Source: an uncultured Cytophagales bacterium
GTDB lineage: Bacteria; Bacteroidota; Bacteroidia; Cytophagales; Cyclobacteriaceae
Assembly (NCBI GenBank): GCA_963711495.1
Contig: CAVQEK010000007.1
Span: 94,970 to 158,969 of the forward strand
Direction: 5' to 3'
Length of the DNA: 64,000 nt
Translations under genes and position numbers: made by a program
In this document: one piece after another, positions 22,091 to 62,326 of the stretch
How positions within the stretch are numbered: position 1 is the first letter of the stretch
Layout: every line of letters starts with the position of its first letter
Notes under the pieces: generated by a model
What the model saw: the letters and a program-made list of their open reading frames with translations, nothing else
The model's database searches: none
Told to the model about the DNA's origin: nothing

Positions 22091-23038
22091 TTAGATAACT
22101 TCACCAAACTTATCCTTGGCGGTGCGCTTGAATATTTCATAATCCCGGAATGCAGCGATACCCCCGGCAGCGGTGGTGGAAACCGCACCTGTTAAATTGC
22201 CAAATCTCTGGCATTCGGCAACGTCCTTTCCATTTATAAATTTATATATAAACCCGGCATTAAAACTATCTCCGGCACCAATCGCATCTATCACCTGCGT
22301 GTTCAAAAAAGGTGGCAAGGCTATCAGTTGATTTTTATTATGAATAAGCGATCCCTTATTGCCCCGCTTGATAGCTAGGATGTTGGTATGCATCTTAATG
22401 GACTCGATGGCTACATCTAAATTGCTTTTCCCGGTTAACTGCATCAGTTCCCTTTCGTTGGGCAGGAAGACATCTACATTTGGCAATACATCCAAAAAAT
22501 CCAGATTCCATTTCTCCAGAGGATCCCACTGCATATCGAACGATGTTGTCAAACCCAGATTTTTTGCTTCACGAAATAGCCCACCCAAACCTTGCCACAT
22601 CCCAGGCTGTAGAAAATAAGAAGAAAAATGAAGATGTCTGGCTTTCTTCAAATCATCTCTGGAAATATCATCTGTTGTAAGATATTCCATCGCTCCGGGA
22701 TAGGTTGTATTCGCTCTGTCTTCATTAATATTCAAGATTACTGTAGCTCCGGTACCATGATATTCATCCATTTTGATCATCGAGGTATCAACATGTTTAT
22801 CCTTTAGATTCTCAATGACAATTTCTCCGAATTTGTCATTTCCTATCTTCCCTATGAACGCTACACGAGCGCCCAAACTTGAAATGTTGCTGGCGAAAAT
22901 AGCCGATGAACTTCCCAATGTTAATGTCATTTGGTGCGCCAGAACTTCTTTTCCTATTTCAGGAAATTTTTCAATCTCATCCATGATGAGATCTACATTC
23001 AATTCTCCTACAACTAATACGTCAAATTTTTTTTCCAT
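22091..23038 (-). CDS. PfkB-family carbohydrate kinase (substrate not assignable; keto-deoxy-sugar-acid or fructose kinase type)
   Basis: 315-aa ORF with an N-terminal VLVVGELNVDLI, and DAIGAGDSFNAGFIYKF plus GAVSTTAAGG at the C-terminus. Confidence 0.8.
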   Translation of the reverse strand: MEKKFDVLVVGELNVDLIMDEIEKFPEIGKEVLAHQMTLTLGSSSAIFASNISSLGARVAFIGKIGNDKFGEIVIENLKDKHVDTSMIKMDEYHGTGATVILNINEDRANTTYPGAMEYLTTDDISRDDLKKARHLHFSSYFLQPGMWQGLGGLFREAKNLGLTTSFDMQWDPLEKWNLDFLDVLPNVDVFLPNERELMQLTGKSNLDVAIESIKMHTNILAIKRGNKGSLIHNKNQLIALPPFLNTQVIDAIGAGDSFNAGFIYKFINGKDVAECQRFGNLTGAVSTTAAGGIAAFRDYEIFKRTAKDKFGEVI

Positions 23039-23684: not shown

Positions 23685-25928
23685 TCAATGCACCAGAAAG
23701 GTCCCCGGACATCTACTGTATCCCTTGTTTCCGTAAATATCCGATGATTCGATTCCCAGTCTATACAGTTCAAATTTTTCAGCAGGAACTTTTCCGCCGA
23801 ACCTGTTATCGCCAGCCACACGGTCACCGTCTATTCCGACGTCGTTCAGTTCTATATTCAGAAAATTTTCAGGACCATTGTCTGAGATCAACCGGGCCTT
23901 TACCCATCTGACCTTTCCCCCATCATAAACCCAGGCGTGCACAATATTATCACCCGTTATCTCAGCCTTTCGCAACATAGGTGCAATGGTATCCTTACCA
24001 GATACCTTTATTCGTATTTTCCCATTTTTTATAATATGATAGGGATAATCCGGCAACCAGTAAGTGGCAAAAAATTCTACCATCTGATTGTCAGGGGTTT
24101 CCGAAGAGATCAAAGGGATGGAGTATTTTTCCGAGCCACCCACGTGATCATAGCTGCCCCAGTTATCCGATTCCCTGAACCTAAGTCCCAAAGGGTTAAT
24201 ATACTGGTCATTTGTGAACAGTTCCGTTCTGTGGTACAATCCGCTGTCCCCGACCAGGAGTACTATGGATTCTCCGGGATTGGCAATGCCGTCTCCGTTT
24301 CCGTTACCCAAAAAAACCGAAGCCGTATCATCACCGGCCACGGCGACCGTAAAATAATTGCCATCGGCCACAACAACATCTTTAAACTCCCCGACTTCAG
24401 GTCGTACAGGTATGGTAAAATGCTGAATCCATGCGTTTCCAAGGTCATCCTTGATCATCAGTTTGAATTTTTCAATTTCCACACTGTCACTTTTAATAAT
24501 GAAGGAGAATGGGCGATCGGACTCCGCAAGTCCGTTGACATCCACCTTACCATATTCGGCTACGGCATTCATAATTTCCGCATCACCATTCTCATCGGAT
24601 AGTACCGCTTTTACATTTCCGGACTTTCCGGTTCCCTTATTCAACAAACTGACCTTGAGGTTCACCACCTTTCCGGGCACTACCCAATTTATATTGGTAA
24701 CTTTCTGCGCCGTCATACACAATTTTGGTCCGCTATCTGTTGTACCGATGCCAATTTCATGGAGCGCCCCATCCGTTATAATTTCAATTCTTCCTTCTTC
24801 ATCACTGTTTACCACGTATTGGGCGTGGCTTCCTGCCGTCAGGTTTACATCATTTATGACGTAAGTATGGTGCTTTTCATAGTTCGGTGCAGTGGTTACA
24901 GTAACTTTCACAAAAGGCATAACAGAACCGTTGGGAAGAAATTCCTTTACCGAGCATCTGAACCCGCGATCGTTTACATTTTCCAAAAGGGTAAAACCGG
25001 GATAATGACGGTCAGAACTTACTTCGTAACCCCAAACTTTAAATTCGGGATAAACATCAATATGACTCCATGTTTCCGGTTTGGGAAGTGGGTTTTTAAA
25101 CGTGTCGAGTATAAAATCAAACATCTCGCCAAGACCACAGGTCGTATGGTCTGCATGATAGATCTTGTATTCATAATTATCCAACACCCTGGCCCATATC
25201 CTATTCATATCTTGATGATAGGCACGGATAAAATCCTGATCACCATAGTTTAAACGTAACTTGACTCCCGCGTAGTTTTTATACATATCCAGATGCCGGT
25301 ATTCCACGGGAAAATCATAAGGGCCCACTACAAATTCCGTTGAGCCACAAAAGTTCCCTGCCGCACAAACCATCTCGGGATATTTGCCTGCAATCCAAAA
25401 AGTCATAAACCCACCCATCGACAAGCCGGATATTGCCCGGTGATCCCTGTCGGGAATGGTTCGGTAGTTGGCATCGATATACTTTACAATTTCCGGGAAG
25501 TAGAGCGGAAACTGGCGGTATGTTTCCACGGGTCCGATATTGTAGGGTCTGAGGTAATAAGGATCGCCAGGATTGCGGTTATAGCCATCCGGCTTGACCA
25601 CGATCACGTCGTGCCGAGCGACATAGTTGGCAATGTTGTCGCCATTGTTATTGCCTCCCTGGTCGATATCAGGCGTATTGATACTTCCGAAATAGCGTTG
25701 AGACCAGCCATGGTAAAAATAAATGACAGGGTAATACCTGTCGGTGTGCTGAAAATACCCCGGAGGAAGGAAGATGCGGTAATTTCTCATTTCACCGAAC
25801 ACTTCACTGTAATGTTGCGAATCGATGATGGTTACTCCTCCGTTATTGGACACCACTTCAAAAAAAGTAAATACCAACAACAAGCCTGGTAAGCATTTTA
25901 TCATCAATTTTCCGGTTTTCCGTTTCAT
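23685..25928 (-). CDS. Secreted alpha/beta-hydrolase esterase (CE1 / esterase-D-like) with a roughly 450-aa beta-rich C-terminal extension
   Basis: 747-aa ORF. It has YRIFLPPGYFQHTDRYYPVIYFYHGW, the nucleophile elbow AISGLSMGGFMTF, and HADHT near the end of the catalytic domain. It is a paralogue of 32560-34425 (shared KNPLPKPETWSHIDVYPEFKVWGYEV vs KDPLPEPKRWDHADLYPNFDVWGYEV, and NGNGDGIANPGESIVLLV vs GNGNNIAEPGEWIMVYEV). Confidence 0.7.
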   Translation of the reverse strand: MKRKTGKLMIKCLPGLLLVFTFFEVVSNNGGVTIIDSQHYSEVFGEMRNYRIFLPPGYFQHTDRYYPVIYFYHGWSQRYFGSINTPDIDQGGNNNGDNIANYVARHDVIVVKPDGYNRNPGDPYYLRPYNIGPVETYRQFPLYFPEIVKYIDANYRTIPDRDHRAISGLSMGGFMTFWIAGKYPEMVCAAGNFCGSTEFVVGPYDFPVEYRHLDMYKNYAGVKLRLNYGDQDFIRAYHQDMNRIWARVLDNYEYKIYHADHTTCGLGEMFDFILDTFKNPLPKPETWSHIDVYPEFKVWGYEVSSDRHYPGFTLLENVNDRGFRCSVKEFLPNGSVMPFVKVTVTTAPNYEKHHTYVINDVNLTAGSHAQYVVNSDEEGRIEIITDGALHEIGIGTTDSGPKLCMTAQKVTNINWVVPGKVVNLKVSLLNKGTGKSGNVKAVLSDENGDAEIMNAVAEYGKVDVNGLAESDRPFSFIIKSDSVEIEKFKLMIKDDLGNAWIQHFTIPVRPEVGEFKDVVVADGNYFTVAVAGDDTASVFLGNGNGDGIANPGESIVLLVGDSGLYHRTELFTNDQYINPLGLRFRESDNWGSYDHVGGSEKYSIPLISSETPDNQMVEFFATYWLPDYPYHIIKNGKIRIKVSGKDTIAPMLRKAEITGDNIVHAWVYDGGKVRWVKARLISDNGPENFLNIELNDVGIDGDRVAGDNRFGGKVPAEKFELYRLGIESSDIYGNKGYSRCPGTFLVH

Positions 25929-25957
25929 AATGTATTAAGTTACCAGCACTGCAATTC

Positions 25958-27262
25958 CTATTGACTATTTGTTATTATTTTTTGACGAGAATTCACCCTC
26001 ATGATATAAGCCTGCCTGCTACCCGTTCGGGTTGAATTGAATCCGATTATATCTCCATTCTGACTCCACCGGCAGTGAAGGTCGCAGCGCCAGCCACCGG
26101 AAAATTCCTCTGGTTCGAAAAAACGCCCCAGAGACAACACGGCTTGAGTTTTCATATCCATCATGAAGATCTTCTGTTCATTCATGCCCTCACTCGGATA
26201 AGTATCGGTTATCATCCATTTCCCGTCTGGTGAAAAAGTTCCGTGAGCGTCGAAGTCAAGCAAGCCTTTGCCAAGTCGTGTATAATCTTCCTTCCCGACC
26301 GTAAACAAAACATGCGCGTATTGTTTTGCGTCGTATTTCGCGGTGATCATTAGCCGGTCGTCGTCAAGCCAATCAAAATGTGATCCTTCCCAGTCGTCGG
26401 GGAAACATCGCCGAAGCCCGGAGCCATCGACATTGACGGTGAAGCAGGTCGTATTTCTTCGCGGTGTCGCTCGGGCCAGCCAGAATATCTTCGTGTCTTC
26501 ACGGCTAAATAATGTATGGTTGAAATATTCAATGCCTTCGGGGGGAACTTCCGGCACCAATTCCCTAACCTGGGCCATCGATACGATCAGCTTTGCGCTT
26601 CCGGTTTCAAGATCAACCACAAATATTCCGTCGTTTTCAGGAAACTGCACATCTGCCAACGGATTCTGGCCTTCGCCTCCGTAACCGTAATCCGGGCGTG
26701 TTATGCGGATCCTGCCGTAATTGATACTTATGGCTATCTTGCCGTCGTGGGATACTGCGCTTATAGGGTACGGAATGATTCTCTTTTCTTCTCCGGTATG
26801 CACATTAAGAATGACCGATACAAACCGGCCATTTCGCAGATCATTGTAGATTATGAGGGAATCCGGAGAAGTCCCCAGCCAGTGCACCATGCAGCCCTGT
26901 TGGAAATTCCATGCCCTGGTCCTGGCCACCGGCTTGAATTTAAGGGTCTCAAGGTCAACGATGCCCAGTGTCACCGTATCGTTTTCCGTTGGTATTCTGT
27001 ATTTCACGTCGGTTTCCAGCACTGTTGCGTACCTTTCGGAAGCACTGAAAGAATTGATGCCGTAATAGCTCGCAAAAAAATGCTCCTTCGTGTTATCCGT
27101 TATTTGTAGCGGTGAAGAAATTTGCGGGAAAACGGCCCCGTTATCGTCTTTGCTTTTTCTGCAACCGCCCAAAATCAGGATGGCAAAAGTCGCCATAAAG
27201 AAAATTATCGATCTGTACATAATCATAATGACTTGGAATTTAATCAATTTATCTTGATTCAT
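25958..27262 (-). CDS. Lipoprotein with a TolB/oligogalacturonate-lyase-like beta-propeller (function uncertain)
   Basis: 434-aa ORF with a lipobox (ILILGGC). The repetitive beta-strand pattern has SPDGKW-type blades. The C-terminal WRCDLHCRWSQNGDIIGFNSTRTGSRQAYIM resembles the end of Ogl-type (PL22) propellers. The family call is by eye only. Confidence 0.4.
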   Translation of the reverse strand: MNQDKLIKFQVIMIMYRSIIFFMATFAILILGGCRKSKDDNGAVFPQISSPLQITDNTKEHFFASYYGINSFSASERYATVLETDVKYRIPTENDTVTLGIVDLETLKFKPVARTRAWNFQQGCMVHWLGTSPDSLIIYNDLRNGRFVSVILNVHTGEEKRIIPYPISAVSHDGKIAISINYGRIRITRPDYGYGGEGQNPLADVQFPENDGIFVVDLETGSAKLIVSMAQVRELVPEVPPEGIEYFNHTLFSREDTKIFWLARATPRRNTTCFTVNVDGSGLRRCFPDDWEGSHFDWLDDDRLMITAKYDAKQYAHVLFTVGKEDYTRLGKGLLDFDAHGTFSPDGKWMITDTYPSEGMNEQKIFMMDMKTQAVLSLGRFFEPEEFSGGWRCDLHCRWSQNGDIIGFNSTRTGSRQAYIMRVNSRQKIITNSQ

Positions 27263-27415
27263 TTAGAGTTCACAAACGAAGAATAGATCATCGTGATCAA
27301 CTGTATAATGTTCGTCAACAGGTTTTAACTATTTGCGCATTCAAAGTCTCACCATCCTGACCTGTTCAGTTTCCTGACGGTACAATTTCTCTTTTTTTGT
27401 CAAGTTTTCCTTCAA

Positions 27416-27856
27416 TTAATGCTTTTCCCTAACCACCGTGAAGTGAGCAGTAGTTACCAAAGATCTGAAATCCATATCCGCCGTCTTTTTAATGATGAAC
27501 TTGTCTTTCGTCCACTTTTTGTCAAAATTAGGGTTGCAGGGATAGCGGGTCCAGTGAATACTGTCGTCAGAGGTAGCGTAGCCCAGGTATTTCGGGTCAG
27601 TATCTTTGTCCAAATAGCCCGAGTACCACATTTTATATTTTCCATCTCCTTGCAGGATGTAGCCCCGTTCCCGATTATTCCGGTCCCAGGTATCGGTATC
27701 CGTTCCGCTGAAAATTGGATTGCGTTCGTAAGGGGTAAAAGAGACCATTTCCGGGGGAAATGCCTCAGAAGAACCGGATCCGGTCTTCTTTTTTGAACCA
27801 CAGGCGATCAGCAAAAAAACCAAGGCCTATACGATAAACTGCCCTATGACTTTCAT
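27416..27856 (-). pseudogene. N-terminal fragment of a five-bladed beta-propeller glycosidase (GH43/GH130-like); an amber stop interrupts the signal peptide and the gene is truncated
   Basis: Reading from the ATG at 27856 gives MKVIGQFIV*ALVFLLIACGSKKK, with the TAG at 27827-27829. The 135-aa ORF contains NPIFSG..TWD...GYILQGDGKYKMWYSGY....LGYATSDDSIHWTRYPCNP, which is one blade pair only, then ends. Only about 150 bp remain before the next gene. Confidence 0.45.
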
Positions 27857-27980
27857 CTTTATAGTTTTAATATATAAATATCAATTAATGATCATTTCAT
27901 CTGTTTCTGTCAGACTTCCCGGAAAGGAACAAACGGCAATATGCCTACAATTTACGCCATTACATCATTCCGTCCACCCA

Positions 27981-29906
27981 TTATTTAAACGGCGTGGCCA
28001 GGTATCCCTCGATATCCGTCCAGTGCCGCAGCATGATCTTCCTTTTGGACTTAAGCTGCCCGATTAGGTCCGGACCGAGCAAAAATGTATCCTCATACTT
28101 CGGGTCTTTGGCATGGGCAATGAATTCCATCCCGCCATCTTCCAGCACATCGATCAGATCCTGGGTATTGTCCAACTCATCCCGCATCACAGCATTAAAT
28201 GCCTGCAAGTCGGGATCACCCTCCCAGGTGGGGCTTTTATCAGGCCGGTGAGGGGGCATGCTGAGTTTGTCGGCATTGCGGTCCCGAATCGCTTGTGCCT
28301 CGGCAAAATTTCCGATGGTCCGGAAAATACTGCTGTGGATCTTCAGGGCTGTCGCCAGATGTTGAAGAAAAGCCTTTTCCGGGGCATTCTCACTGGCTTT
28401 TTCTATCAAATCGATCGTCCGGTTGATCTTTGAGGTGTAATTACCTGCTGCTCCGGAAGCGAGGGTCCGGTGGGCGCCATGAATGTCGGTGAAATCCATC
28501 CGCGCCTCCTTTTCGGACGGATTGAATACATATGGCAGAAAATAAGCTTCTTCCTCCGGGGACAACCTGTCCGGGGCAATAACAAGCGGCCTGGTGATCT
28601 GCCGTTCGGACACGCCCCAATAGATCCCGGATGCGCCACCCAACGCTGTGCTTCTGTACTGATCGGCCTCCTCCAGGATCTGAAAAGCCTTAAACAACGG
28701 ATCGGCCCCTTCTTCGCCCCCCCAATCATGGCAAAGTTGTTTCAATTGCTCCAATTCTGCGATCACTCCTTCATCACCAGGATGTTTCAAATTCGCCACC
28801 AACAGGTCGAGATATTTGTCTGTCGTCGCAAGCGGCTCATATCCCCTGTCATAGGAAGCCCTGAAATTGATGAAGATCGTATTGGCCGGTTCATCTTTGA
28901 TGGAATTGACATTCCTGATGATCTCCAACGGGTCGAACAATCCGCGCACAGGATAGTTACCCAAGATCATGCTGTTTATTCCCTGTACAATGTCCGACCG
29001 GTGACCCTGGAAATAACATCCTTCCGGAAGATGCTGATAAATATCCTTCATTTCTTCGTCGGAAAACATAGATCCTACCAGGTAAATAGAAATATCCCGG
29101 CCGGCTTCCGCAGCGCCTGCTTTAAAAGTATTCATCAGCGTTTCGACCCGCTCTCCCATGCTCTTGTTTTTGCAATGTGCCGGGCCATTGGGGCCGACAT
29201 ACTGCCAGTCGGACCAGCAGATCCCTGAACCGGCGTCATTAGTCTTAAAAAAGAAGGTATGTATCTCCGGCACATTCTTCAGCAATTCGGCTACCATGTT
29301 ACGGTACATTTCCTGGGTTTCTTTCACACTGACGCAGGGCGCAAATGCCGGATGATTCCCGCGCCTGGGGTGATCAACCCTCGGTCCGCGCAGATGGGGA
29401 TATTTTTCAAAGAATGCGTCGGGCAGAAAATTGGGTTCATAACTCCAAAAGGCGGCGTCCAGTCCGTATTCGCGCAAGATCTTTGCTTTCGCCAGCAGCA
29501 GTTCGCGGTTTTTCTTCACAAAATCAGCCGGAATGAACGGGGCAATTTTAGGATCAGGGAAAAACTTATAGGGCGTAGGATTATAACTCGCGTACTCATA
29601 CCAGGAATTTCTCCCCTCGGGGATCTCATAAAAACCTTTTTCCGCCAAAGTACTGATGTTGATCTCGACCCGGCCGAATGGTTTCAGCCGGGAGGCCTGC
29701 TTGGCCAACGCCCGGAATTCATCCAGGTCTTTGATTGGCGCATGGATCACAAATACTTTCTCTTTGCTTTTCCCCGGGTCGTGAACCGCTTTTTCTTTTC
29801 CTTCATTGTTCTCATCTGCCTTCCCGATATTGATTGATGTCAATAAAAGCAAGCATGCCAATAAGAAACGCATTTTCCTCACATCATTTCTAATCATATC
29901 CTCCAA
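27981..29906 (-). CDS. Secreted protein of unassigned family (family-A copy 1; TIM-barrel-like N-half, helical C-half)
   Basis: 641-aa ORF. The probable start is MRFLLACLLLL at 29873. It shows strong, colinear similarity to 54981-56972 (for example YPHLRGPRVDHPRRGNHPAFAPCVSVKETQEMY...EIHTFFFKTNDAGSGICWSDWQYVGPNGPAHCKN). I recognise no catalytic signature. Confidence 0.7.
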   Translation of the reverse strand: MEDMIRNDVRKMRFLLACLLLLTSINIGKADENNEGKEKAVHDPGKSKEKVFVIHAPIKDLDEFRALAKQASRLKPFGRVEINISTLAEKGFYEIPEGRNSWYEYASYNPTPYKFFPDPKIAPFIPADFVKKNRELLLAKAKILREYGLDAAFWSYEPNFLPDAFFEKYPHLRGPRVDHPRRGNHPAFAPCVSVKETQEMYRNMVAELLKNVPEIHTFFFKTNDAGSGICWSDWQYVGPNGPAHCKNKSMGERVETLMNTFKAGAAEAGRDISIYLVGSMFSDEEMKDIYQHLPEGCYFQGHRSDIVQGINSMILGNYPVRGLFDPLEIIRNVNSIKDEPANTIFINFRASYDRGYEPLATTDKYLDLLVANLKHPGDEGVIAELEQLKQLCHDWGGEEGADPLFKAFQILEEADQYRSTALGGASGIYWGVSERQITRPLVIAPDRLSPEEEAYFLPYVFNPSEKEARMDFTDIHGAHRTLASGAAGNYTSKINRTIDLIEKASENAPEKAFLQHLATALKIHSSIFRTIGNFAEAQAIRDRNADKLSMPPHRPDKSPTWEGDPDLQAFNAVMRDELDNTQDLIDVLEDGGMEFIAHAKDPKYEDTFLLGPDLIGQLKSKRKIMLRHWTDIEGYLATPFK

Positions 29907-29933
29907 AATTAAGATCTCAATATTTCCATCTGT

Positions 29934-32573
29934 TTATTTCCCGTGTCCCTTTACATGGATTACCGCCGGTACACTTTCATTCCACCGGTTGTCGACGGCA
30001 ACTACTTTATAAAACAGGTCGCTTTGCCTTTCTGGCGGTACATCATTCACCGATGTTTTCATGACCGATCTGATCAACGTTTCGTTGCCACATTCGTCGT
30101 TGGCAGTCTTTCCGCAATAAATGGAATAATGATGCAGATCAGGGGCCGGTGAAGGTGTCCAGGAAAGGGTAATCCGGTCCCCGTTGACCGTGGCGTGAAG
30201 ACCTTTTACCTCCCCGGGAGCAATGCCGTCGCCGGGATACGGTGCCTCGGGTGTAAATTCATCCGTCGTAAATAGCAGCATATCCAATTTCAAATCGTCA
30301 TCTCCGGAAGACAATTCAATAGTTTTCTGTTGGCCATCTGGATTAAAAACACCCAGGCTCATCCATTTCCAGTCCTGCGATTGGACCGGAAACGCGTTGG
30401 CTCCAACAGACCAGGAACCAGTACCTTTGACACTACCCCATATAAAATAATGTCCCGCAGGCATCCCATCCAAGGGGATGTTGACCACTCCTTTCGACGC
30501 CGTTTCTGCAGTTGATTCCGCGTTGATGCGGACGCACTGAAATCCATTGGCGTACCCGTCAAAGAACCGTCTTGCCGGCGGGGTCAATGCCATGTCCTCG
30601 GCCTCGAAATAAAAGGACCTTGCACCTTCGGTCGAGACTTCACATGAAAAATCGCTTTCCAATCCGGAATGCTCCACCGACGCAATGGCGTAATACTTCC
30701 ACCGGCCATCAATCTTTGCCCGAATTTCCGTTAAAGGTTTTTCATTAAGCCGGACAAAGTCCCGGCCGCTGCTGTCTGAACCATAGATGTTGTAACCCGC
30801 AATCTCCCGGTGTCGCTTGGGCTGATCCCAGGTGATCAGTGCTCCATCGAGCGTTACATTGACCGGTGCGTCGGGTCGGCGGGTGTATACCATCTGGAGT
30901 TCTGTGCTGCCGATGGCATTTTCGTTATAAATCAGCTTGGTGTAATCCGGACTGGGGCGGCTGTAGGTGGTCGACGTCCAGGAAAATTTGGTAAAATACC
31001 GGGCCACCCGCATCACTGCCCCCGGATCTTTCGAAGAGATCATCAGATGTTGATGATCGACATCCACCCGGGTCCCGTTGGTGAAGACATACTGGTTGTC
31101 GGCGGTGAGCCTGCCGTAATCGGTGACAATGTCATTCTTCCAATTTGCCCAGACCGAAATTTTATCGCCCGGCGTAAATGTATCACCGATGTCTCCCGGG
31201 ACAAAAACATTCAGGTGCCCCCCGAAGTTGGCGACCATTCCGTTTGGTCCATGACTGGCGTGCCCGGCGCTGAATCCCGGCACAAGCCCTTTTTCTCCGA
31301 TGTCCAGGTTCATCCACCACACCTCATAGGTGTAACAATTGGCCCAGCGAATAATGTTGTCGTTGCCGCCCACACTGGCGTCTTTCAAGCGGGTAGGCAA
31401 ATTAATATACCGAGCCTTCTTGTTTTTAACATCGATGATGTACAGGTGCGGCGTTTCACGGAACGCCACCACAATGTTACCCAGCGGCGTAAACCGTTTA
31501 AATTCGATGTATGAGCCCACTTCAGGAACCGAAAATGCAGCAATAGGTGTTTCTTCTCCCGTGATCCTGTTCCACGAGAACACCGAAAACCGAAGCCCGT
31601 TCCTTTTCATCAGGTATAAGACATCGGGGTCATTTTCGCTCCACATCCTCCAACCGGCATCTTTCGGTCCGGCAATCACCCTTCCCTCTCCGGGTATGCA
31701 GATGGGAATACCGCCAATTTTCCGGCTACTTTCAAATTTTATGGCTGCGCCGTCTGCCGACCAGATGCCCCCTTCACCAAAATAATCATCACCCGGAGTT
31801 GCCGTGAGACGGGTGGTGATCCCACCGGTGGCATCATCCCTGAAAATCGCCATCTCTTCGCCATCTATAACCGGAACCAGGATATTTTCCCGCTTCTTCA
31901 AAGCTTCCAGCCCATGATATGGCCTGGGTCCCAGGTGCTCTTCCCGGATGGTAAGCCCGCTGCCGATCAATTTTTCCTGTTCCTCCTTGCTGAGTTCAGA
32001 AGCAAACTTGAGATCGTCCAGGGTCAGGTGGGTATGGTTGTCCTGAAGATCGATCCCAAAATTAACCCGCCGTTTTCCCCTGATCCGGTCGTCATCGTAA
32101 TCTTTTAAGTCAATGACCGTAAGCCCGGTGGTGTATCCCAGCTTCGTCGTGAACCCGTTGATATCAAAAAAACTGCTGGAACCTTTTTCCCGCACATCCA
32201 ACACCACATAGTGATACCAGTCTAGGTCCACCACGCCATAATCCTTCCTCAGGTTGGTGGACGTGTCCTCTGTGGATTCAATCCAGGGCCATTTTTCTGC
32301 GGCTTCTTCCAATGTTCTGAATTTATGATGGATGATCAGCACCCCATCCTTCGATTCCATCTTCAACGCCGGAAGAATCGTGTCTCCCCTCGGGTTGATT
32401 TCCCGCCATCCCTCCACTGTGGTAAAGTCATCGTGCAAACCAATCTTTTTACCGTCAGACTGACAGGAAATGCATAACACGATCAGACACACCAAAAAAA
32501 TTGCCGGGGTTAGCCGCATTGTCGATGTGGTTGATTTCAGCAAGCCCATATCACCACTATCAATTATCCTCAT
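29934..32573 (-). CDS. Multidomain secreted lipoprotein: N-terminal jelly-roll-like domain, Ogl/PL22-like beta-propeller, Fn3, CBM-like domain, Fn3
   Basis: 879-aa ORF. The probable start is MRLTPAIFLVCLIVLCISC at 32519. The propeller entry FRDDATGGITTRLTATPGDD...SADGAAIKFES and exit YSRPSPDYTKLIYNENAIGSTELQMVY resemble oligogalacturonate lyase. Fn3-like segments are present (ITWDQPKRHREIAGYNIYG; ITLSWTPSPAPDLHHYSIYCG), and a CBM-like block reads FYFEAEDMALTPP...LLFTTD. Confidence 0.6.
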   Translation of the reverse strand: MRIIDSGDMGLLKSTTSTMRLTPAIFLVCLIVLCISCQSDGKKIGLHDDFTTVEGWREINPRGDTILPALKMESKDGVLIIHHKFRTLEEAAEKWPWIESTEDTSTNLRKDYGVVDLDWYHYVVLDVREKGSSSFFDINGFTTKLGYTTGLTVIDLKDYDDDRIRGKRRVNFGIDLQDNHTHLTLDDLKFASELSKEEQEKLIGSGLTIREEHLGPRPYHGLEALKKRENILVPVIDGEEMAIFRDDATGGITTRLTATPGDDYFGEGGIWSADGAAIKFESSRKIGGIPICIPGEGRVIAGPKDAGWRMWSENDPDVLYLMKRNGLRFSVFSWNRITGEETPIAAFSVPEVGSYIEFKRFTPLGNIVVAFRETPHLYIIDVKNKKARYINLPTRLKDASVGGNDNIIRWANCYTYEVWWMNLDIGEKGLVPGFSAGHASHGPNGMVANFGGHLNVFVPGDIGDTFTPGDKISVWANWKNDIVTDYGRLTADNQYVFTNGTRVDVDHQHLMISSKDPGAVMRVARYFTKFSWTSTTYSRPSPDYTKLIYNENAIGSTELQMVYTRRPDAPVNVTLDGALITWDQPKRHREIAGYNIYGSDSSGRDFVRLNEKPLTEIRAKIDGRWKYYAIASVEHSGLESDFSCEVSTEGARSFYFEAEDMALTPPARRFFDGYANGFQCVRINAESTAETASKGVVNIPLDGMPAGHYFIWGSVKGTGSWSVGANAFPVQSQDWKWMSLGVFNPDGQQKTIELSSGDDDLKLDMLLFTTDEFTPEAPYPGDGIAPGEVKGLHATVNGDRITLSWTPSPAPDLHHYSIYCGKTANDECGNETLIRSVMKTSVNDVPPERQSDLFYKVVAVDNRWNESVPAVIHVKGHGK

Positions 32574-34425
32574 CTTTTCCCACGGTGATGGTAAAGGTCC
32601 CCCAGGTCACATTTCTTTTGATCGCCTTCCACTCCTTCACTTCATAATTGGCCAAAAACCTGATCTTGTGTCCGATAGGACAGTCCTTGGAAATATGCAC
32701 GATGGAAGAAACCGCATAGCCGTCACCCCACTTGTCGGGTTGCAGGTCCACATGGATGCGCTCGGAATCGATATATGGATCGTCGTAATAAAGCCGCGTG
32801 CGGTGACTTACCTCATAGACCATGATCCACTCTCCAGGCTCAGCAATATTATTCCCATTGCCACTCCCGAAGATCTCGCTGTCGCCATCATCAATTCCGA
32901 TGTGCGTAAATTGAGGAACGTCATAAAATACCGGGGCATCGAACTCATCATTCCAGGTATTCTGTTTTTTGTCCGTCACGGCAACCTGAAACCTGACCCT
33001 GAACGGCGAACCATCCTTGGTAGGCTCATTGGACGCGGTCACTTCAATATCAGTCGCTACCCAGCTATCTCCGCACGAAGGGATATCATCGATGGTGATG
33101 GTAGGATTTGCAATGGATACACCGTCAGCCAGGGTGGTCAAAGTCACCTTCAACCCTTTGGCCACTGCACCGCCGCGATTCAGGAGATGGAGCTTGAGGT
33201 TACATTCCTTTTTATGATCCAGGAAGGTCCCTTCTCCATTTACCTGATATCCAATAACCACGATCTCCGCCGGATCGTTTTTTCTAAAAATACCGATCTG
33301 GTGCGGCTCATGATCGACATCAAAATTTATCTTCCCTTCCGCATCACTCTTTACGGTTGACACTTCCTTTTTATTGAGTGATTCGTTGTAATCCAATAGA
33401 CTGTATGAAGCATTAGGGTGGTAAATTGCCGGGGTTTTAACGTTGATCTTCACGCCGGGGATGGTGCGGCCATGGGGCTCCCATTTTCTTGTGGTGATCC
33501 CCATGCCCCCTTTTGTCACGCCGTGCATGTCAATAAAGCCGGGTTCATCGAGGTTGCTTCGCACTTCATAGCCCCAGACATCAAAATTGGGATAAAGATC
33601 GGCATGATCCCACCGTTTCGGCTCCGGCAGTGGATCTTTAAACGCCCGGATCACAAAGTTGAATGCATCGGTAAGCTCTTCGGCAGTCAAATGATGCCCG
33701 CCCTCATAAATTTTATATTCAAAAGACAGATCACCTTCATGCAAAGCTCCCTGGTACACTTCGTTGTTCAGGTAAACCAGTTCGCCGTTGGTGCTGTTGT
33801 CAAACCTAAGCTTTACGCCGTGAAGATTCTTGAAGAAATAGCGAACACTATACAGTGTATGGTTATCAGGATACCCGATGAAAAATTCGGGAGATCCCTT
33901 AGAACTTACCGCTGCGCCGACTAACTGCGGATATTTCCCGGCCAGGTAAAAAGACATGATCCCTCCCATGCTGTGTCCGATAATTGCCCGGTGCGCCCGG
34001 TCGTTCAATGTCCGGTAGGTAGAGTCAATATGCGCTACAAATTCAAGAAAGTAATCCTTGAACTGCACCTGATAGTTGATGTTGGAATGAAAACCAACGT
34101 TATAGGGCCGAACATCGGACTCGACGGAACGGCCGTTCCAGGCCACCATGATCACCGAATTTTCCTTTGCCAACCGGGCCATCGTATCGGATAAGGGATT
34201 TTGATGGGTTCCTTTGTTGCCATGGAAAAAATAGATCACCGGATATCTTTTATTGGACGTTTCATAATCATCCGGCAAAAATATTCGATAGGGCTTTTCC
34301 CTGTTGAACACCTTGCTAAAATGAACTTTGTCTTGCTGTGCCAAAGATCCGGATGAAAGCCCTACCGTCACCATTAATACCAATGCGGCCACTTTCATCA
34401 GGTTGTTTACCATCAATTTTTTCAT
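32560..34425 (-). CDS. Secreted alpha/beta-hydrolase esterase (CE1 / esterase-D-like) with a beta-rich C-terminal extension; first gene of the operon
   Basis: 621-aa ORF with a signal peptide. It has YRIFLPDDYETSNKRYPVIYFFHGN, the nucleophile elbow AIIGHSMGGIMSF and EGGHH. It is a paralogue of 23685-25928. Confidence 0.7.
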   Translation of the reverse strand: MKKLMVNNLMKVAALVLMVTVGLSSGSLAQQDKVHFSKVFNREKPYRIFLPDDYETSNKRYPVIYFFHGNKGTHQNPLSDTMARLAKENSVIMVAWNGRSVESDVRPYNVGFHSNINYQVQFKDYFLEFVAHIDSTYRTLNDRAHRAIIGHSMGGIMSFYLAGKYPQLVGAAVSSKGSPEFFIGYPDNHTLYSVRYFFKNLHGVKLRFDNSTNGELVYLNNEVYQGALHEGDLSFEYKIYEGGHHLTAEELTDAFNFVIRAFKDPLPEPKRWDHADLYPNFDVWGYEVRSNLDEPGFIDMHGVTKGGMGITTRKWEPHGRTIPGVKINVKTPAIYHPNASYSLLDYNESLNKKEVSTVKSDAEGKINFDVDHEPHQIGIFRKNDPAEIVVIGYQVNGEGTFLDHKKECNLKLHLLNRGGAVAKGLKVTLTTLADGVSIANPTITIDDIPSCGDSWVATDIEVTASNEPTKDGSPFRVRFQVAVTDKKQNTWNDEFDAPVFYDVPQFTHIGIDDGDSEIFGSGNGNNIAEPGEWIMVYEVSHRTRLYYDDPYIDSERIHVDLQPDKWGDGYAVSSIVHISKDCPIGHKIRFLANYEVKEWKAIKRNVTWGTFTITVGKDEDN

Positions 34426-35045: not shown

Positions 35046-36038
35046 ATGATGTTTTCATTCATTACAAAAACCCCCAGAAGCATCCGTTCGATCACCCTTG
35101 GACTTATGAGGCTTCTCCTTTTTGGCCTCCTGCTCCCGGTTGCTTGTAGCCCTCAGAAGAAATCACCTTTTACTTTTAAAAGAAATGATCAAGGGATCGA
35201 AGTGAAGGAAAACGGGAAGCCGGTATTCTTTTATCAGAAAGAACCAAAATCGCTTGATGGAAAATATGTATGCGATAATTACCTGCATCCGCTGTACAGT
35301 TTGAGCGGAGACACTCTCACGGAAGAGTTTCCCGCCGACCATCCCTACCACCGGGGTATTTTCTGGGCCTGGCACCAGGTCCATATCGACAATAAAAGTG
35401 TCGGTGATGGCTGGGTTATGGAAAACATTGAACAAAAGGTTGTGGATGTGCAAACGGTCATTAATGATCACGTCGGCCAACTCGAAATAAATGCGCTGTG
35501 GAAATCCCCACTGTACGAAAACAAGAAACCGTTTATTGCCGAACACACCACCATATCGCTCCATCCTCTTGAAGACAGCGTACGCAAAATCGATTTTGCC
35601 ATCCGCCTGAAGGCGCTCGTTCCTCACGTTGAAATCGGCGGCGCCGACGACGAGAAAGGTTATGGAGGATTGTGTGCCAGGATCAGGCTGCCGGAGGATA
35701 TAATTTTTACATCTGCAAATGGAATGGTTACTCCGCAGACATATCAGGTGAAAGCCGGACCATGGATGGATTTTTCCGCTTCGTATGGAAAAAACAATGA
35801 AATGGAAGGGATTGCCATACTTTGTCACCCAAAAACTCCAAATTATCCAGCACCATGGATCCTGCGCGCTGAAAAAAGCATGCAGAATATCGTGTTTCCG
35901 GGAAGGGACCGGGTCACGTTGCCAACGGAAGGGTTCATCATTTTGTACTACAGGTTGATTGTCCACAGCGGAAATGCTGATGACCTCAATCTATCCAAAC
36001 TGCAATTAGAATATGCAGAAAAGAAAATAACAAAGTGA
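35046..36038 (+). CDS. PmoA-like / DUF6807-family protein (secreted)
   Basis: 330-aa ORF with a signal/lipobox (LLLPVACS). The family hallmark NYLHPLYSLSGDTLTEEFPADHPYHRGIFWAWHQV is followed by LCHPKTPNYPAPW. Confidence 0.6.
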   Translation: MMFSFITKTPRSIRSITLGLMRLLLFGLLLPVACSPQKKSPFTFKRNDQGIEVKENGKPVFFYQKEPKSLDGKYVCDNYLHPLYSLSGDTLTEEFPADHPYHRGIFWAWHQVHIDNKSVGDGWVMENIEQKVVDVQTVINDHVGQLEINALWKSPLYENKKPFIAEHTTISLHPLEDSVRKIDFAIRLKALVPHVEIGGADDEKGYGGLCARIRLPEDIIFTSANGMVTPQTYQVKAGPWMDFSASYGKNNEMEGIAILCHPKTPNYPAPWILRAEKSMQNIVFPGRDRVTLPTEGFIILYYRLIVHSGNADDLNLSKLQLEYAEKKITK

Positions 36039-54152: not shown

Positions 54153-54965
54153 CTACACCACTTGCCTGTTTTTCCCAAACCGGCTTAAACTGTAGGGCAA
54201 CATCAACAGGAATGGAATAATCCAGATCGCCCAATAAGAAAAATATTCAAACCAGTTGTTGATCGTGTAGACATGCTTTTTATCGCCAAAAATCTTTACT
54301 ACAAAATCCGTAGTGTACGGATCAACGGCATCAGGATAATACAAAGACGCCATGTTTTGGTACGGTCCTCTCACCAACTCAGGATTTAAAGAAACCGCTC
54401 CCGTATCGTACGGAACAACCACCCCAAAGTCCGGATCGAGGAGGTAGGTTGCCGTGTCATTCAATTCGGCCCTTACCACGACATGATGCCCGCCGACATC
54501 CAGCAGTTGCGCCTTTATTCCATTGTCCTCCAAAACACCTTTCACAACCGTAGAATGAGTTGAACACAGGCCAACACCCCGTTCCAGATTTTTCTTGTAG
54601 TTGCTGAACTCGTATCGCTCGTACCGGCCGGGGTCGATATATGAGGCGGCATACAGCAGGTAATTTTCCCACACCGGCACACGTTCATGGTACTTTTCGA
54701 TTCCCGCTTGCTTCCAATAATGAGCAAAGCCATCATTGACGACTTTATTAATTCGTGTAGCAAATTGTATGTTGTTTTCCCCGGGTTTCCTTTTCAGCAT
54801 TTCCTTTATGTCAGGATACCGGATGGTCACATCATTAACCCTGTTGTGTAATGTCTTTTCCAACGTATATATTTCCGGATTACGCATGGTTTTAAACAAT
54901 CCGTAAAAATTAATCGCCATAAGACAAAGGCCGGCAACGAAGAGAACTATATTCAACTTTTTCAT
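54153..54965 (-). CDS. Membrane-anchored transglutaminase-like (Cys-His-Asp) superfamily protein
   Basis: 270-aa ORF with an N-terminal TM (IVLFVAGLCLMAINFYGLF) and a C-terminal TM (YWAIWIIPFLLMLPY). The candidate triad is spaced as in the transglutaminase core: GVGLCSTHS, GGHHVVVRAEL, YLLDPDFG. Confidence 0.5.
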   Translation of the reverse strand: MKKLNIVLFVAGLCLMAINFYGLFKTMRNPEIYTLEKTLHNRVNDVTIRYPDIKEMLKRKPGENNIQFATRINKVVNDGFAHYWKQAGIEKYHERVPVWENYLLYAASYIDPGRYERYEFSNYKKNLERGVGLCSTHSTVVKGVLEDNGIKAQLLDVGGHHVVVRAELNDTATYLLDPDFGVVVPYDTGAVSLNPELVRGPYQNMASLYYPDAVDPYTTDFVVKIFGDKKHVYTINNWFEYFSYWAIWIIPFLLMLPYSLSRFGKNRQVV

Positions 54966-62308: not shown

Positions 62309-62326
62309 ATTTCCTAAATTTTAAAA

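What the first reader, a model, noticed from the sequence alone, without database searches (positions are those of the whole stretch)
23685..34425. A 10.7-kb operon of secreted enzymes without its own SusC/D, mirrored by paralogues in PUL-2
Five intact minus-strand genes with short gaps run in this order: esterase, an 879-aa propeller/Fn3/CBM protein, the family-A protein, a 434-aa propeller lipoprotein, and a second esterase. A GH43/130-like fragment lies between the third and fourth genes. There is no transporter or regulator inside the block. Three protein families are duplicated within or between this block and PUL-2 (51-64 kb): the two esterases, the two family-A proteins and the two beta-helix proteins. 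The combination of CE1-like esterases, Ogl/PL22-like propellers, beta-helix proteins and GH27 suggests a uronate-containing, esterified heteropolysaccharide. Most members cannot be placed in characterised families by eye. This pair of loci is my best candidate for an undescribed degradation system in the window.
Basis: inference. Interest (0 to 1): 0.7.

Follow-up and report, generated by a model that had tools for sequence, protein, structure and literature searches.

The report
Orphan enzyme operon of an uncharted PUL
This five-gene block is the transporter-less half of a sugar-polymer degradation system found across many Bacteroidota, and most of its enzymes belong to protein families that nobody has characterised, so it is a good lead for discovering new carbohydrate-active enzymes.

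Summary
Five intact minus-strand genes lie at 23685-34425, with a truncated sixth gene between the third and fourth. They encode two CE1-like serine esterases (gA, gE), a multidomain lipoprotein with a PL22-fold propeller (gB), "family A" (gC), and a propeller lipoprotein (gD). There is no transporter or regulator inside the block. The paralogy is real: family A copies are 52% identical, the esterases 31%, and the PUL-2 beta-helix proteins 51%.

Family A has no Pfam, NCBIfam or PDB sequence match. Its model is a TIM barrel plus helical bundle, closest to GH138 alpha-galacturonidase. A diverse gD-family profile hits PL22 oligogalacturonate lyases (E 6e-7). The PL22 catalytic His and three of the four metal-ligand positions align with invariant gD residues.

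In 80 loci from other Bacteroidota, family A sits beside the same esterase, a 270-aa membrane protein, the beta-helix protein, a PUL-2-type SusC/D pair, DUF6807 and GH27. The block and PUL-2 are therefore one conserved system, split in this genome.

The best reading is a new PUL type for an esterified, uronate-containing glycan. The substrate and operon status are inferred, not shown. I found no publication on these families, and I could not query CAZy or dbCAN.

The parts
32560..34425 (-). gA: secreted CE1-like serine esterase (621 aa) with a ~350-aa C-terminal extension that has no family match
   Evidence: PF00756 E 4.6e-19. PDB CE1 feruloyl esterases 7xrt, 1jjf and 7b5v, E 5e-13 to 3e-8. 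S152 (GHSMGG) and H244 are invariant in homologues. It lies next to family A in 44 of 80 related loci.
29934..32549 (-). gB: 871-aa lipoprotein. Domains: N-terminal beta-sandwich, 7-bladed PL22-fold propeller (~230-560), Fn3, CBM-like beta-sandwich, Fn3
   Evidence: AF2 model pLDDT 87, pTM 0.83. Foldseek finds 3pe7 and 3c5m (PL22) with TMt 0.64 and 0.63, rmsd 4.6 A. The Fn3 domains match by profile. Only 51 homologues were found. It sits between the esterase and family A in 7 of the 8 related loci that carry it. The residues that define the PL22 active site are absent in low-confidence alignments.
27981..29897 (-). gC: family A, a 638-aa secreted TIM barrel plus C-terminal helical bundle; a putative exo-glycosidase of an undescribed family
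   Evidence: No Pfam, NCBIfam or PDB sequence hit, even with a 36-sequence profile. At least 528 homologues, none carrying a functional name. AF2 pLDDT 82, pTM 0.85. Foldseek best match is GH138 BT0997 (E 1e-10, TMq 0.5, 11% identity), followed by GH20, GH89, GH115 and GH84. Invariant E154 and N220-D221 lie at the C-terminal ends of barrel strands.
27416..27823 (-). Truncated remnant (first ~115 aa) of a ~300-aa five-bladed-propeller lipoprotein (GH32/GH43/GH130-like)
   Evidence: Intact 320-350-aa homologues (48-64% identity) lie just downstream of family A in 19 related loci. An intact homologue hits Glyco_hydro_32N at 1.4e-10, GH130 at 2.4e-8 and GH43 at 5.9e-8. The same truncation appears in two independent assemblies.
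25958..27226 (-). gD: 422-aa propeller lipoprotein, a distant PL22 relative and putative metal-dependent uronate lyase
   Evidence: 1312 close homologues and 3929 cluster representatives at 50% identity. A 69-sequence profile hits PL22 3pe7 at E 5.8e-7 and 3c5m at 8.5e-6. Invariant H283, H328, D382 and H384 align with YeOGL H242, H287, H353 and H355. Pfam PL22 does not recognise gD, and only 2 of 69 relatives match it weakly. Close relatives are fused to GH2.
23685..25928 (-). gE: second CE1-like serine esterase (747 aa), a paralogue of gA with a longer C-terminal extension
   Evidence: PF00756 E 1.3e-12. 31% identical to gA over 644 aa. The GLSMGG serine and H261 are conserved.
22091..23038 (-). 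PfkB-family sugar kinase, a recurrent neighbour of the cluster and a probable downstream catabolic step
   Evidence: PfkB E 2e-53. Orthologues at 50-75% identity lie next to family A clusters in L036, L071, L074, L080 and L081. Its specificity is unresolved.
35046..36038 (+). DUF6807 protein, divergently transcribed from gA; a conserved neighbour
   Evidence: PF14100 E 7e-42. The same divergent DUF6807/esterase arrangement occurs in L002, L006, L014, L016, L017, L022, L024 and L028. It is present in 20 of 80 loci.
54981..56972 (-). Family A paralogue (famA2) in PUL-2
   Evidence: 52% identical to gC. No Pfam or NCBIfam hit.
54153..54965 (-). o270: 270-aa protein with N- and C-terminal hydrophobic helices and invariant Cys134, His161, Asp177/179. 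It is tightly coupled to family A genes
   Evidence: Present in 47 of 80 loci, usually starting a few tens of nt after the family A stop codon. Invariant residues. No PDB hit. Only three weak, single-member transglutaminase-like Pfam hits, E 0.03-0.1.
51152..53356 (-). Right-handed beta-helix protein 1 (734 aa) with a C-terminal Ig-like domain; candidate depolymerase
   Evidence: NosD E 5.6e-5, just under cut-off. In the family, 9 of 24 members hit Beta_helix (best 1.6e-8) and 15 of 24 hit CarboxypepD_reg. It follows o270 in most loci.
58250..60487 (-). Right-handed beta-helix protein 2 (745 aa)
   Evidence: 51% identical to beta-helix protein 1. It belongs to the same family alignment A6.
57035..58243 (-). 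GH27 glycosidase
   Evidence: Melibiase_2 E 1e-77 and Melibiase_C E 2.5e-15. It co-occurs with the cluster in L049, L065, L073, L074 and L077.
60623..63994 (-). SusD (60623-62308) and SusC (62327-63994, running off the window end); probable cognate transporter for both loci
   Evidence: SusD-like_2 E 2e-79. Orthologues at 31-79% identity precede the esterase and family A genes in 20-21 of 80 loci.

Best explanation
The block is an accessory enzyme cluster of a conserved but uncharacterised Bacteroidota polysaccharide-utilisation system. The core of that system (SusC/SusD, beta-helix proteins, GH27, a second family A gene and its 270-aa membrane partner) lies 17 kb away in PUL-2. Proposed working model; every step is inferred unless marked otherwise. 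The substrate is an acidic, O-esterified complex glycan that carries uronic acids, either pectin-like or a microbial or algal analogue. The beta-helix proteins depolymerise it outside the cell, and the lipoprotein gB (CBM-like and Fn3 domains plus a PL22-fold propeller without the PL22 catalytic residues) binds or cuts it there. The PUL-2 SusC/D pair imports the fragments. The serine esterases gA and gE remove acyl or methyl esters. The family A TIM-barrel enzymes (gC and its paralogue) remove terminal uronate or hexosamine-type residues as exo-glycosidases. gD cleaves short uronate-containing oligosaccharides by metal-assisted beta-elimination, using a conserved histidine as base. The neighbouring PfkB kinase feeds the products into central metabolism. 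Shown here: gene content, paralogy, folds, remote homology with aligned catalytic residues, and cross-genome synteny. Not shown: activities, substrate, cellular location and co-transcription.
For: Synteny: among 80 loci from other species, family A lies within 10 kb of a gA-type esterase in 44, o270 in 47, a beta-helix protein in about 35, a PUL-2-type SusC/D pair in 20-21 and DUF6807 in 20. In L002, block-type genes and PUL-2-type genes sit within a few kb of each other. In L018, gB lies directly beside the SusC/D pair. Enzymology: the CE1-like esterases have an intact Ser and His. The family A model is closest to GH138 alpha-galacturonidase, then to GH20, GH89, GH115 and GH84, which all act on uronic acids or N-acetylhexosamines. 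The gD family profile hits PL22 at E 5.8e-7. Four of its eight invariant residues fall on the PL22 base and metal-ligand positions. Other genomes place GH88, a CE15/DLH-like esterase and CE2 next to family A. All five proteins begin with hydrophobic signal-like segments, and gB and gD have a conserved lipobox cysteine.
Against: No activity, expression or substrate data exist for any member. Family A resembles GH138 only by fold (TM 0.5, 11% identity), and a family profile does not detect GH138 by sequence. gB lacks the PL22 catalytic and metal residues in the available alignments, which are low confidence. The gD family occurs in many unrelated CAZyme contexts and within 10 kb of family A in only 3 of 80 loci. 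It is fused to GH2 or to glycosyltransferases elsewhere, so its tie to this system is loose. In gD the PL22 Gln ligand position is Arg and the PL22 Arg217 position is not conserved. Nearby AgaS, GH20 and recurrent DUF5009 genes point instead to amino sugars. The nearest SusC/D pair is physically PUL-1, not PUL-2. The PL22 residue numbers come from my memory of Abbott et al. 2010, because that paper was not held in the library.
Confidence: 0.6

Rival explanations
1. The system is the same, but the substrate is an amino-sugar-rich acidic polymer such as a bacterial capsule, EPS or cell-wall glycan, or a galactosamine-containing polymer, rather than a pectin-like glycan. Family A would then be an N-acetylhexosaminidase-type exo-enzyme. 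GH27 would be an alpha-N-acetylgalactosaminidase. o270 would be a Cys-His-Asp amidase or acyltransferase acting on N-acyl or amino-acid substituents.
For: An AgaS-family sugar-phosphate isomerase, PfkB kinases and a DeoR regulator lie between the two loci. They recur next to family A clusters in L036, L071, L080 and L081. GH20 and a GH20-like DUF4838 protein are in the window. DUF5009 (an HGSNAT-like acyltransferase family) and an M14 peptidase-like protein recur near family A in 10 and 9 loci. Family A's structural neighbours include GH20, GH84 and GH89. o270 has invariant Cys, His and Asp.
Against: The best structural match of family A is an alpha-galacturonidase, not a hexosaminidase. The family A motif is N-D, not the D-E or D-D pair I recall for GH20 and GH84. 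The PL22-like gD and the recurrent GH88 and CE15-like genes point to uronates. The two readings do not exclude each other, because many bacterial glycans carry both.
Confidence: 0.2
2. The block serves the adjacent PUL-1 (SusC/D at 15919-20701, sulfatases, GH127, DUF4838), not PUL-2. It would add esterase, lyase and glycosidase functions for a sulfated glycan, under the LacI regulator at 21038-22057.
For: It is physically close (3 kb) and on the same strand as PUL-1. The LacI and PfkB genes sit between them. The same arrangement appears in an independent contig, L001.
Against: Across 80 loci, family A clusters are joined to PUL-2-type SusC/D pairs in 20-21 cases at 31-79% identity. SusC1/D1-type proteins appear in only 1-3 loci at 23-35% identity, and sulfatases in 1-3. 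Block-type and PUL-2-type genes are contiguous in L002, L022, L024 and L028.
Confidence: 0.1
3. The propeller proteins, and possibly family A, are non-catalytic glycan-binding or scaffolding proteins. The only enzymes in the block would be the two esterases, making it a de-esterification module.
For: gB carries CBM-like and Fn3 domains typical of surface glycan-binding proteins and lacks the PL22 catalytic residues. No catalytic residue of family A could be validated against GH138. Relatives of gD are fused to complete GH2 enzymes, as a binding module might be.
Against: In gD, the residues aligned to the PL22 base and metal ligands are invariant across 69 sequences that are only 24-42% identical to gD. 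That is hard to explain without catalysis or metal binding. Family A keeps invariant acidic residues at barrel strand ends and is 47-75% conserved across orders.
Confidence: 0.1

Closest known systems
PL22 oligogalacturonate lyase (Ogl; Yersinia enterocolitica YeOGL, PDB 3pe7; Vibrio VPA0088, 3c5m)
   Same: gD: sequence homology is detectable over the C-terminal half of the propeller when a diverse family profile is used (E 5.8e-7 and 8.5e-6). Invariant residues lie at the positions of the His base and of three of the four Mn2+ ligands. gB: seven-bladed propeller fold, TM 0.64.
   Different: The Pfam PL22 model does not detect gD or gB. In gD the ligand set would be His/Asp/His, with Arg where PL22 has Gln. 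gB lacks all of these residues. Both are lipoproteins, whereas Ogl is cytoplasmic (from memory, Abbott et al. 2010). gB adds a beta-sandwich, two Fn3 domains and a CBM-like domain.
GH138 alpha-galacturonidase BT0997 of the Bacteroides thetaiotaomicron RG-II PUL (PDB 6hzf, 6hzg)
   Same: It is the best structural match to family A (E 1e-10, TMq 0.5). BT0997 also works in a PUL where an alpha/beta-hydrolase esterase (BT1017) must act for breakdown to go to completion (PMC7939467).
   Different: Only 11% identity. A 36-sequence family A profile finds no GH138 in the PDB at E <= 10. Catalytic residues could not be compared. The neighbouring genes are different.
CE1 feruloyl/acetyl-xylan esterases (PDB 7xrt, 1jjf XynZ, 7b5v)
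   Same: The N-terminal ~170-260 residues of gA and gE are homologous to them (E 5e-13), with a GxSxG nucleophile and a conserved His.
   Different: gA and gE carry 350-470-aa C-terminal extensions with no family match. They form their own clade, which is syntenic with family A rather than with xylanases.
Canonical SusC/SusD polysaccharide utilisation loci
   Same: Secreted and lipoprotein enzymes are clustered on one strand. Orthologous clusters elsewhere sit directly behind a SusC/D pair.
   Different: This block has no SusC/D pair or regulator of its own, so it is a satellite CAZyme cluster. The conserved core includes a membrane Cys-His-Asp protein (o270) that is not a usual PUL component.

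Membership tests
PL22 (gD) | Recognised by the family's sequence model (Pfam PF14583) | tested here: not met
   No PF14583 hit for gD at E <= 0.01. Only 2 of 69 diverse relatives hit it, best E 7.3e-4.
PL22 (gD) | Homology to solved PL22 enzymes | tested here: met
   Profile A5 vs PDB: 3pe7 E 5.8e-7 (profile 202-385 vs chain 185-383) and 3c5m E 8.5e-6. The narrower profile A2 found nothing.
PL22 (gD) | Histidine Bronsted base (YeOGL His242; residue number from memory) | tested here: met
   It aligns with gD H283 (422-aa numbering), which is invariant in 69 sequences.
PL22 (gD) | Mn2+ site made of three His and one Gln (YeOGL H287, H353, H355, Q350; numbers from memory) | tested here: inconclusive
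   H287 aligns with H328, and H355 with H384; both are invariant. H353 aligns with invariant D382. Q350 aligns with near-invariant R380. A metal site is plausible but would differ from PL22.
PL22 (gD) | Seven-bladed beta-propeller fold | not tested
Only faint PD40, TolB and Tricorn_N repeat hits.
PL22 (gD, gB) | Cytoplasmic enzyme acting on digalacturonate | tested here: not met
   Both have N-terminal hydrophobic segments with a conserved Cys, i.e. a lipoprotein-type signal read by eye. Activity is not testable with these tools.
PL22 (gB) | Seven-bladed beta-propeller fold similar to Ogl | tested here: met
   Foldseek: 3pe7 TMt 0.64, rmsd 4.6 A, E 3.4e-10; 3c5m TMt 0.63.
PL22 (gB) | Catalytic His and metal ligands | tested here: not met
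   hhalign of gD vs gB puts a gap or Ile at H283, a deletion at H328, and Thr/Tyr at D382/H384. The alignment probabilities are only 30% and 5%, so this result is provisional.
GH138 (family A) | Sequence similarity to GH138 members | tested here: not met
   Profile A1 vs all PDB sequences finds no GH138 hit at E <= 10. Single-sequence search finds none either.
GH138 (family A) | Shared fold | tested here: inconclusive
   Best Foldseek hit 6hzg/6hzf: E 1e-10, TMq 0.47-0.51, rmsd 8-9 A, 11% identity. The architecture is related but the superposition is not close.
GH138 (family A) | Catalytic residues and alpha-galacturonidase activity | not testable with these tools
   The GH138 paper was not held and no residue-level structural alignment is returned by the tool.
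CE1 (gA, gE) | PF00756-type alpha/beta-hydrolase domain homologous to characterised CE1 esterases | tested here: met
   PF00756 at 69.6 and 48.5 bits (cut-off 22). PDB CE1 hits at E 5e-13 to 3e-8.
CE1 (gA, gE) | Ser nucleophile in GxSxG and a catalytic His | tested here: met
   S152 is conserved in 43 of 43 aligned residues and H244 in 46 of 46. The acidic triad member was not pinned down.
Polysaccharide utilisation locus (block) | Adjacent susC/susD pair within the locus | tested here: not met
   No TonB-dependent receptor or SusD domain lies between 23685 and 34425. Orthologous clusters elsewhere do follow a SusC/D pair.
Transglutaminase-like Cys-His-Asp superfamily (o270) | Conserved Cys/His/Asp core recognised by family models | tested here: inconclusive
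   C134, H161 and D177/D179 are invariant. There is no PDB hit. Only three single-member Pfam hits at E 0.03-0.1.
GH32/GH43/GH130 five-bladed propellers (fragment) | Full-length catalytic propeller domain | tested here: not met
   An intact homologue hits GH32N, GH130 and GH43 models. The window copy keeps only ~115 of ~300 residues.

The most novel reading that the evidence does not exclude
The block and PUL-2 together define a new, widely distributed PUL type built almost entirely from undescribed catalytic families. These would be a GH138-like TIM-barrel glycosidase family; a large family (about 3900 clusters at 50% identity), secreted in gD and its close relatives, of PL22-related lyases with a His/Asp/His metal site; a PL22-fold surface protein with a different active site; a new beta-helix depolymerase family; and a membrane Cys-His-Asp enzyme genetically coupled to the glycosidase. 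The system would target an abundant environmental acidic glycan for which no degradation pathway is yet known.
Probability: 0.35. Interest if true: 0.75.

Novelty: new variant of a known kind. Interest (0 to 1): 0.6.

Why it matters
Bacteroidota PULs are the main route by which complex glycans are recycled in soils, sediments, wastewater and guts. Their unknown genes limit what we can predict about carbon turnover. This cluster supplies at least three protein families with a definite, testable functional hypothesis: family A, the gD family and the beta-helix family. Each has hundreds to thousands of homologues and none has a functional annotation. For gD there are specific residues to mutate. 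If confirmed, the families would extend the PL22 and GH138 lineages to secreted enzymes of environmental Bacteroidota and would add new CAZy families. They would also identify a recurrent PUL architecture with the order SusC/D, esterase, family A, membrane Cys-His-Asp protein, beta-helix protein. Its substrate could then be sought by expression studies in cultured relatives.

Tried and rejected
1. Single-sequence and narrow-profile searches of gB, gC and gD against PDB sequences found nothing useful. Only a diverse gD profile, built from the 50%-identity representatives, reached PL22.
2. BLASTP of gB against gD found no similarity. hhalign gave probabilities of only 30% and 5%. I therefore do not claim the two propellers are homologous by sequence.
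3. The sigma-70 promoter and terminator scans returned no more sites than shuffled sequence, and those consensus patterns do not fit Bacteroidota promoters. They say nothing about operon structure.
4. Literature searches on DUF6807, GH138 PULs and new propeller lyase families found no paper on these families. The GH138 and YeOGL structure papers were not held.
5. Pfam at relaxed thresholds gave nothing for the fragment, o270, the 178-aa ORF, the esterase C-terminal extensions, the gB N-terminal domain or the 351-aa ORF.
6. I considered a siderophore-esterase or PHA-depolymerase role for gA and gE because of weak NCBIfam hits. I rejected it because the CE1 matches are stronger and the glycan context is conserved.
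7. I considered a role in glucuronoxylan or lignin-carbohydrate complexes (CE1 plus CE15-like plus a GH115-like fold). I rated it low because no xylanase is present in the window or among the ten commonest window-absent neighbour families scanned.
Relatives are Prolixibacteraceae-type MAGs.

Full report
**Observation**

The region 23685-34425 holds five uninterrupted minus-strand ORFs:
- gA, 32560-34425, 621 aa
- gB, 29934-32573, 879 aa
- gC, 27981-29906, 641 aa
- gD, 25958-27262, 434 aa
- gE, 23685-25928, 747 aa

Database proteins 100% identical to gB, gC and gD start slightly downstream, giving 871, 638 and 422 aa. With those starts the intergenic gaps are 10, 36 and 29 nt, plus 157 and 189 nt on either side of a 135-codon ORF at 27416-27823. 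Pfam and NCBIfam find no transporter or regulator in the block. All five proteins begin with a hydrophobic signal-like segment. gB and gD have a cysteine there that is conserved across their families. These signals were read by eye.

An independent Logan assembly reproduces window 26560-38360 at 99.98% identity. The arrangement is therefore not an assembly artefact of this record.

**Paralogy**

- gC is 52% identical over 599 residues to the ORF at 54981-56972.
- gA and gE are 31% identical over 644 residues, including their long C-terminal extensions.
- The two PUL-2 proteins at 51152-53356 and 58250-60487 are 51% identical.
- gB and gD show no BLASTP similarity.

**The esterases**

gA and gE hit PF00756 above its cut-off. 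gA's closest solved relatives are CE1 feruloyl/acetyl esterases: 7xrt at E 5e-13, then 1jjf and 7b5v. In 46 homologues from related loci, the serine of GxSMGG and a histidine (gA S152 and H244) are conserved wherever a residue is aligned. The 350-470-residue C-terminal extensions match no family.

**Family A**

gC has no Pfam, NCBIfam or PDB sequence match, even when a 36-sequence profile is used. It belongs to a family of at least 528 proteins, and none of the listed ones carries a functional name.

An AlphaFold2 model (pLDDT 82, pTM 0.85) shows an N-terminal (beta/alpha)8 barrel followed by a helical bundle. Foldseek places it nearest to the GH138 alpha-galacturonidase BT0997 (E 1e-10, TMq about 0.5, 11% identity). 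Next come GH20, GH89, GH115 and GH84. From established knowledge of those families, this group acts on uronic acids or N-acetylhexosamines.

Invariant E154 and N220-D221 lie at the C-terminal ends of barrel strands. That is where TIM-barrel glycosidases place their catalytic residues, so I treat them as candidates. This is inference. Family A is best described as a putative exo-glycosidase of an undescribed family. It is GH138-like in architecture but is not a GH138 member.

**gD**

gD belongs to a very large family: 1312 close homologues and 3929 representatives at 50% clustering. A narrow profile found nothing in the PDB. A profile of 69 diverse representatives, 24-42% identical to gD, hit the PL22 oligogalacturonate lyases 3pe7 (E 5.8e-7) and 3c5m (E 8.5e-6).

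That profile has only eight invariant columns. In the printed alignment, four of them fall on YeOGL positions 242, 287, 353 and 355 (numbering of the 422-aa form of gD):

| YeOGL residue | Role in YeOGL (from memory) | gD residue | Conservation in gD family |
|---|---|---|---|
| His242 | catalytic base | H283 | invariant |
| His287 | Mn2+ ligand | H328 | invariant |
| His353 | Mn2+ ligand | D382 | invariant |
| His355 | Mn2+ ligand | H384 | invariant |
| Gln350 | Mn2+ ligand | R380 | near-invariant |
| Arg217 | not assigned here | T260 (mapped by hand) | not conserved |

The YeOGL roles are recalled from Abbott, Gilbert and Boraston 2010, which I could not retrieve. The coincidence of four recalled positions with four of eight invariant columns is itself strong support.

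Pfam's PL22 model does not detect gD and only weakly detects 2 of 69 relatives. gD is therefore a distant, lipoprotein-type relative of PL22 with a probably modified metal site.

Its genomic contexts vary:
- with GH113 and GH2 in one genome;
- with sulfatases, GH88 and a GH42-like gene in another;
- alone in a third.

Its closest multidomain relatives are fused to GH2, and more distant ones to GT2/GT4. The wider family is thus carbohydrate-active but is not tied to this system.

**gB**

The gB family is small, with 51 homologues. The AlphaFold2 model (pLDDT 87, pTM 0.83) has five parts:
1. an N-terminal beta-sandwich
2. a seven-bladed propeller
3. an Fn3 domain
4. a CBM-like sandwich
5. a second Fn3 domain

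The only compact Foldseek matches are the same PL22 lyases (TMt 0.64 and 0.63, rmsd 4.6-4.9 A). All other high-ranking hits are loose superpositions on propeller-plus-Fn3 arrays.

hhalign alignments of gD against gB are co-linear but weak (probability 30% and 5%). In them, gB has no counterpart of any of the four gD catalytic or metal residues. gB is either a surface glycan-binding protein or an enzyme with a different active site. Many polar residues in its propeller are invariant.

**The fragment**

The 135-codon ORF at 27416-27823 is the 5' end of a ~300-aa lipoprotein gene. That gene lies intact directly after family A in 19 related loci. An intact homologue matches GH32N, GH130 and GH43 models. 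The window copy gives only weak PDB hits, all to the same propeller clan. The truncation is present in two other assemblies.

**Link between the two loci**

I fetched 78 loci from the genomes of other species using the family A profile. To these I added two loci (L002, L003) recovered by exact-protein look-up. I then mapped every window protein onto all 80. Within 10 kb of family A there is:

| Neighbour | Loci (of 80) |
|---|---|
| 270-aa protein (o270) | 47 |
| gA-type esterase | 44 |
| beta-helix protein | about 35 |
| PUL-2-type SusC and SusD (31-79% identity) | 20-21 |
| DUF6807 | 20 |
| gB | 8 |
| GH27 | 5 |
| SusC1/D1-type proteins or sulfatases (low identity) | 1-3 |

Further points:
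- gB lies between the esterase and family A in 7 of the 8 loci that carry it. The eighth locus, L038, shows gB directly before family A with no esterase match.
- The recurrent order is SusC, SusD, esterase, family A, o270, beta-helix, then optionally DUF6807 and GH27.
- In L002, block-type and PUL-2-type genes are a few kb apart.
- The divergent DUF6807/esterase arrangement seen in the window recurs in at least eight loci.
- o270 usually starts a few tens of nucleotides after the family A stop codon.

o270 has hydrophobic helices at both termini and invariant Cys134, His161 and Asp177/179. I could not confirm a transglutaminase-like assignment. The beta-helix assignment is confirmed at family level.

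The block and PUL-2 are two parts of one conserved system. The cognate transporter is more likely the PUL-2 pair than the physically closer PUL-1 pair.

**Substrate**

Nothing here measures it. Evidence for an esterified, uronate-bearing glycan:
- the GH138-like fold of family A;
- the PL22-like active site of gD;
- two CE1-like esterases;
- the families that recur beside family A in other genomes but are absent from this window: GH88 (9 loci), a CE15/dienelactone-hydrolase-like esterase (17 loci) and CE2 (10 loci);
- a GH140-type apiosidase next to family A in Reichenbachiella.

Evidence for amino sugars instead, or in addition:
- an AgaS-family isomerase, PfkB kinases and a DeoR regulator between the loci, which recur in other loci;
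- GH20 and DUF4838 in the window;
- DUF5009 and an M14-like peptidase as recurrent neighbours.

I commit to an acidic, O-esterified heteroglycan with uronates (about 0.55). Pectin-like material is the leading specific guess (about 0.3).

**Comparison with known systems, and novelty**

The system works like a PUL and resembles pectin or RG-II degradation in its logic. In the B. thetaiotaomicron RG-II system, an alpha/beta-hydrolase esterase must act before glycosidases such as GH138 can finish the job (PMC7939467). Membership tests fail or are inconclusive for PL22 (by family model) and for GH138 (by sequence). The block itself lacks a SusC/D pair. No paper on these families was found. CAZy and dbCAN could not be queried.

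I rate it a new variant of a known kind: a conserved PUL architecture built from probably new CAZyme families. It is a solid discovery lead rather than a surprise in principle, because PULs with unknown genes are common. Interest 0.6.

Noticed in passing
window 36370-37564 (-), indel near 36889: An AgaS-family sugar-phosphate isomerase is split into two overlapping ORFs (36800-37564 and 36370-37014). Compared with an independent Logan assembly (99.98% identical), which has one intact 397-aa gene, the window carries a single extra base. This is either a frameshift in this strain or a sequencing indel.
   Followed up: yes
window 32872 (inside gA); locus L001 1-7026: ENA contig_64544 matches window 17985-32872 at 99.8% and then diverges inside gA into unrelated genes (a methyltransferase, CMD and others). 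The Logan contig supports the window's arrangement. The ENA contig is therefore probably chimeric or a strain with a rearrangement.
   Followed up: partly
window 49753-50961 (-): An IS-type transposase (HTH plus rve integrase core) lies between the sugar-catabolism genes and PUL-2. It may mark the rearrangement that separated the block from PUL-2.
   Followed up: no
window 46300-48525 (+): A 741-aa protein combines a beta-lactamase-fold (serine esterase/peptidase) domain with a sub-threshold DUF4185 domain. From memory, DUF4185 is the family of GH183 endo-D-arabinanases. It sits next to a GH20 gene.
   Followed up: no
window 6405-20701 (-): PUL-1 holds SusC/D, two sulfatases with SGSH_C domains, a 709-aa protein with a C-terminal FGE-sulfatase domain, a DUF4838 (GH20-like) protein and a GH127. 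It is a separate locus for a sulfated glycan with its own unknown members.
   Followed up: no
window 74-6121 (-): A DeoR regulator, a ureide/sugar permease-like transporter, a 525-aa ADP-ribosylglycohydrolase-family protein and a PfkB kinase form a small, unusual catabolic cluster at the left end of the window.
   Followed up: no
window 27981-34425: gA, gB and gC have higher G+C (0.47-0.51; GC3 0.55-0.585) than the window mean (0.44) and the SusC/D genes (0.41; GC3 0.36-0.38). This could reflect horizontal acquisition or family-specific composition.
   Followed up: partly
window 53586-54122 (-): A 178-aa ORF with a signal-like N-terminus fills an ~800-bp gap between o270 and beta-helix protein 1. 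In other genomes those two genes are adjacent. The ORF has no homologue in the 80 related loci and no Pfam hit.
   Followed up: partly
window 27823-27981; loci L022, L024, L028, L006, L008, L038: In related genomes, gC-type family A genes are followed by a divergent o270 copy (39-48% identical to the window's o270). In the window, gC has no such partner and only 157 nt separate it from the truncated propeller gene. This suggests a deletion that removed o270' and the 3' part of the propeller gene's neighbourhood.
   Followed up: partly
window 37899-42552 (-); loci L019, L023, L028, L059, L079: A module of an Nramp-family transporter, an NAD-dependent epimerase/dehydratase-family protein, a 351-aa protein with no family and (in the window) an amidohydrolase_2 protein recurs next to family A clusters in several genomes. 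It may be a catabolic route for the released sugar; a uronate-oxidation-type route is one possibility.
   Followed up: no
proteins P0292, P0296-P0298, P0343, P0346, P0350, P0364, P0365 (one search hits): The PL22-related gD-type propeller occurs fused to complete GH2 enzymes in its closest multidomain relatives and to GT2 or GT4 glycosyltransferases in more distant ones. The wider family therefore has roles beyond PULs.
   Followed up: partly
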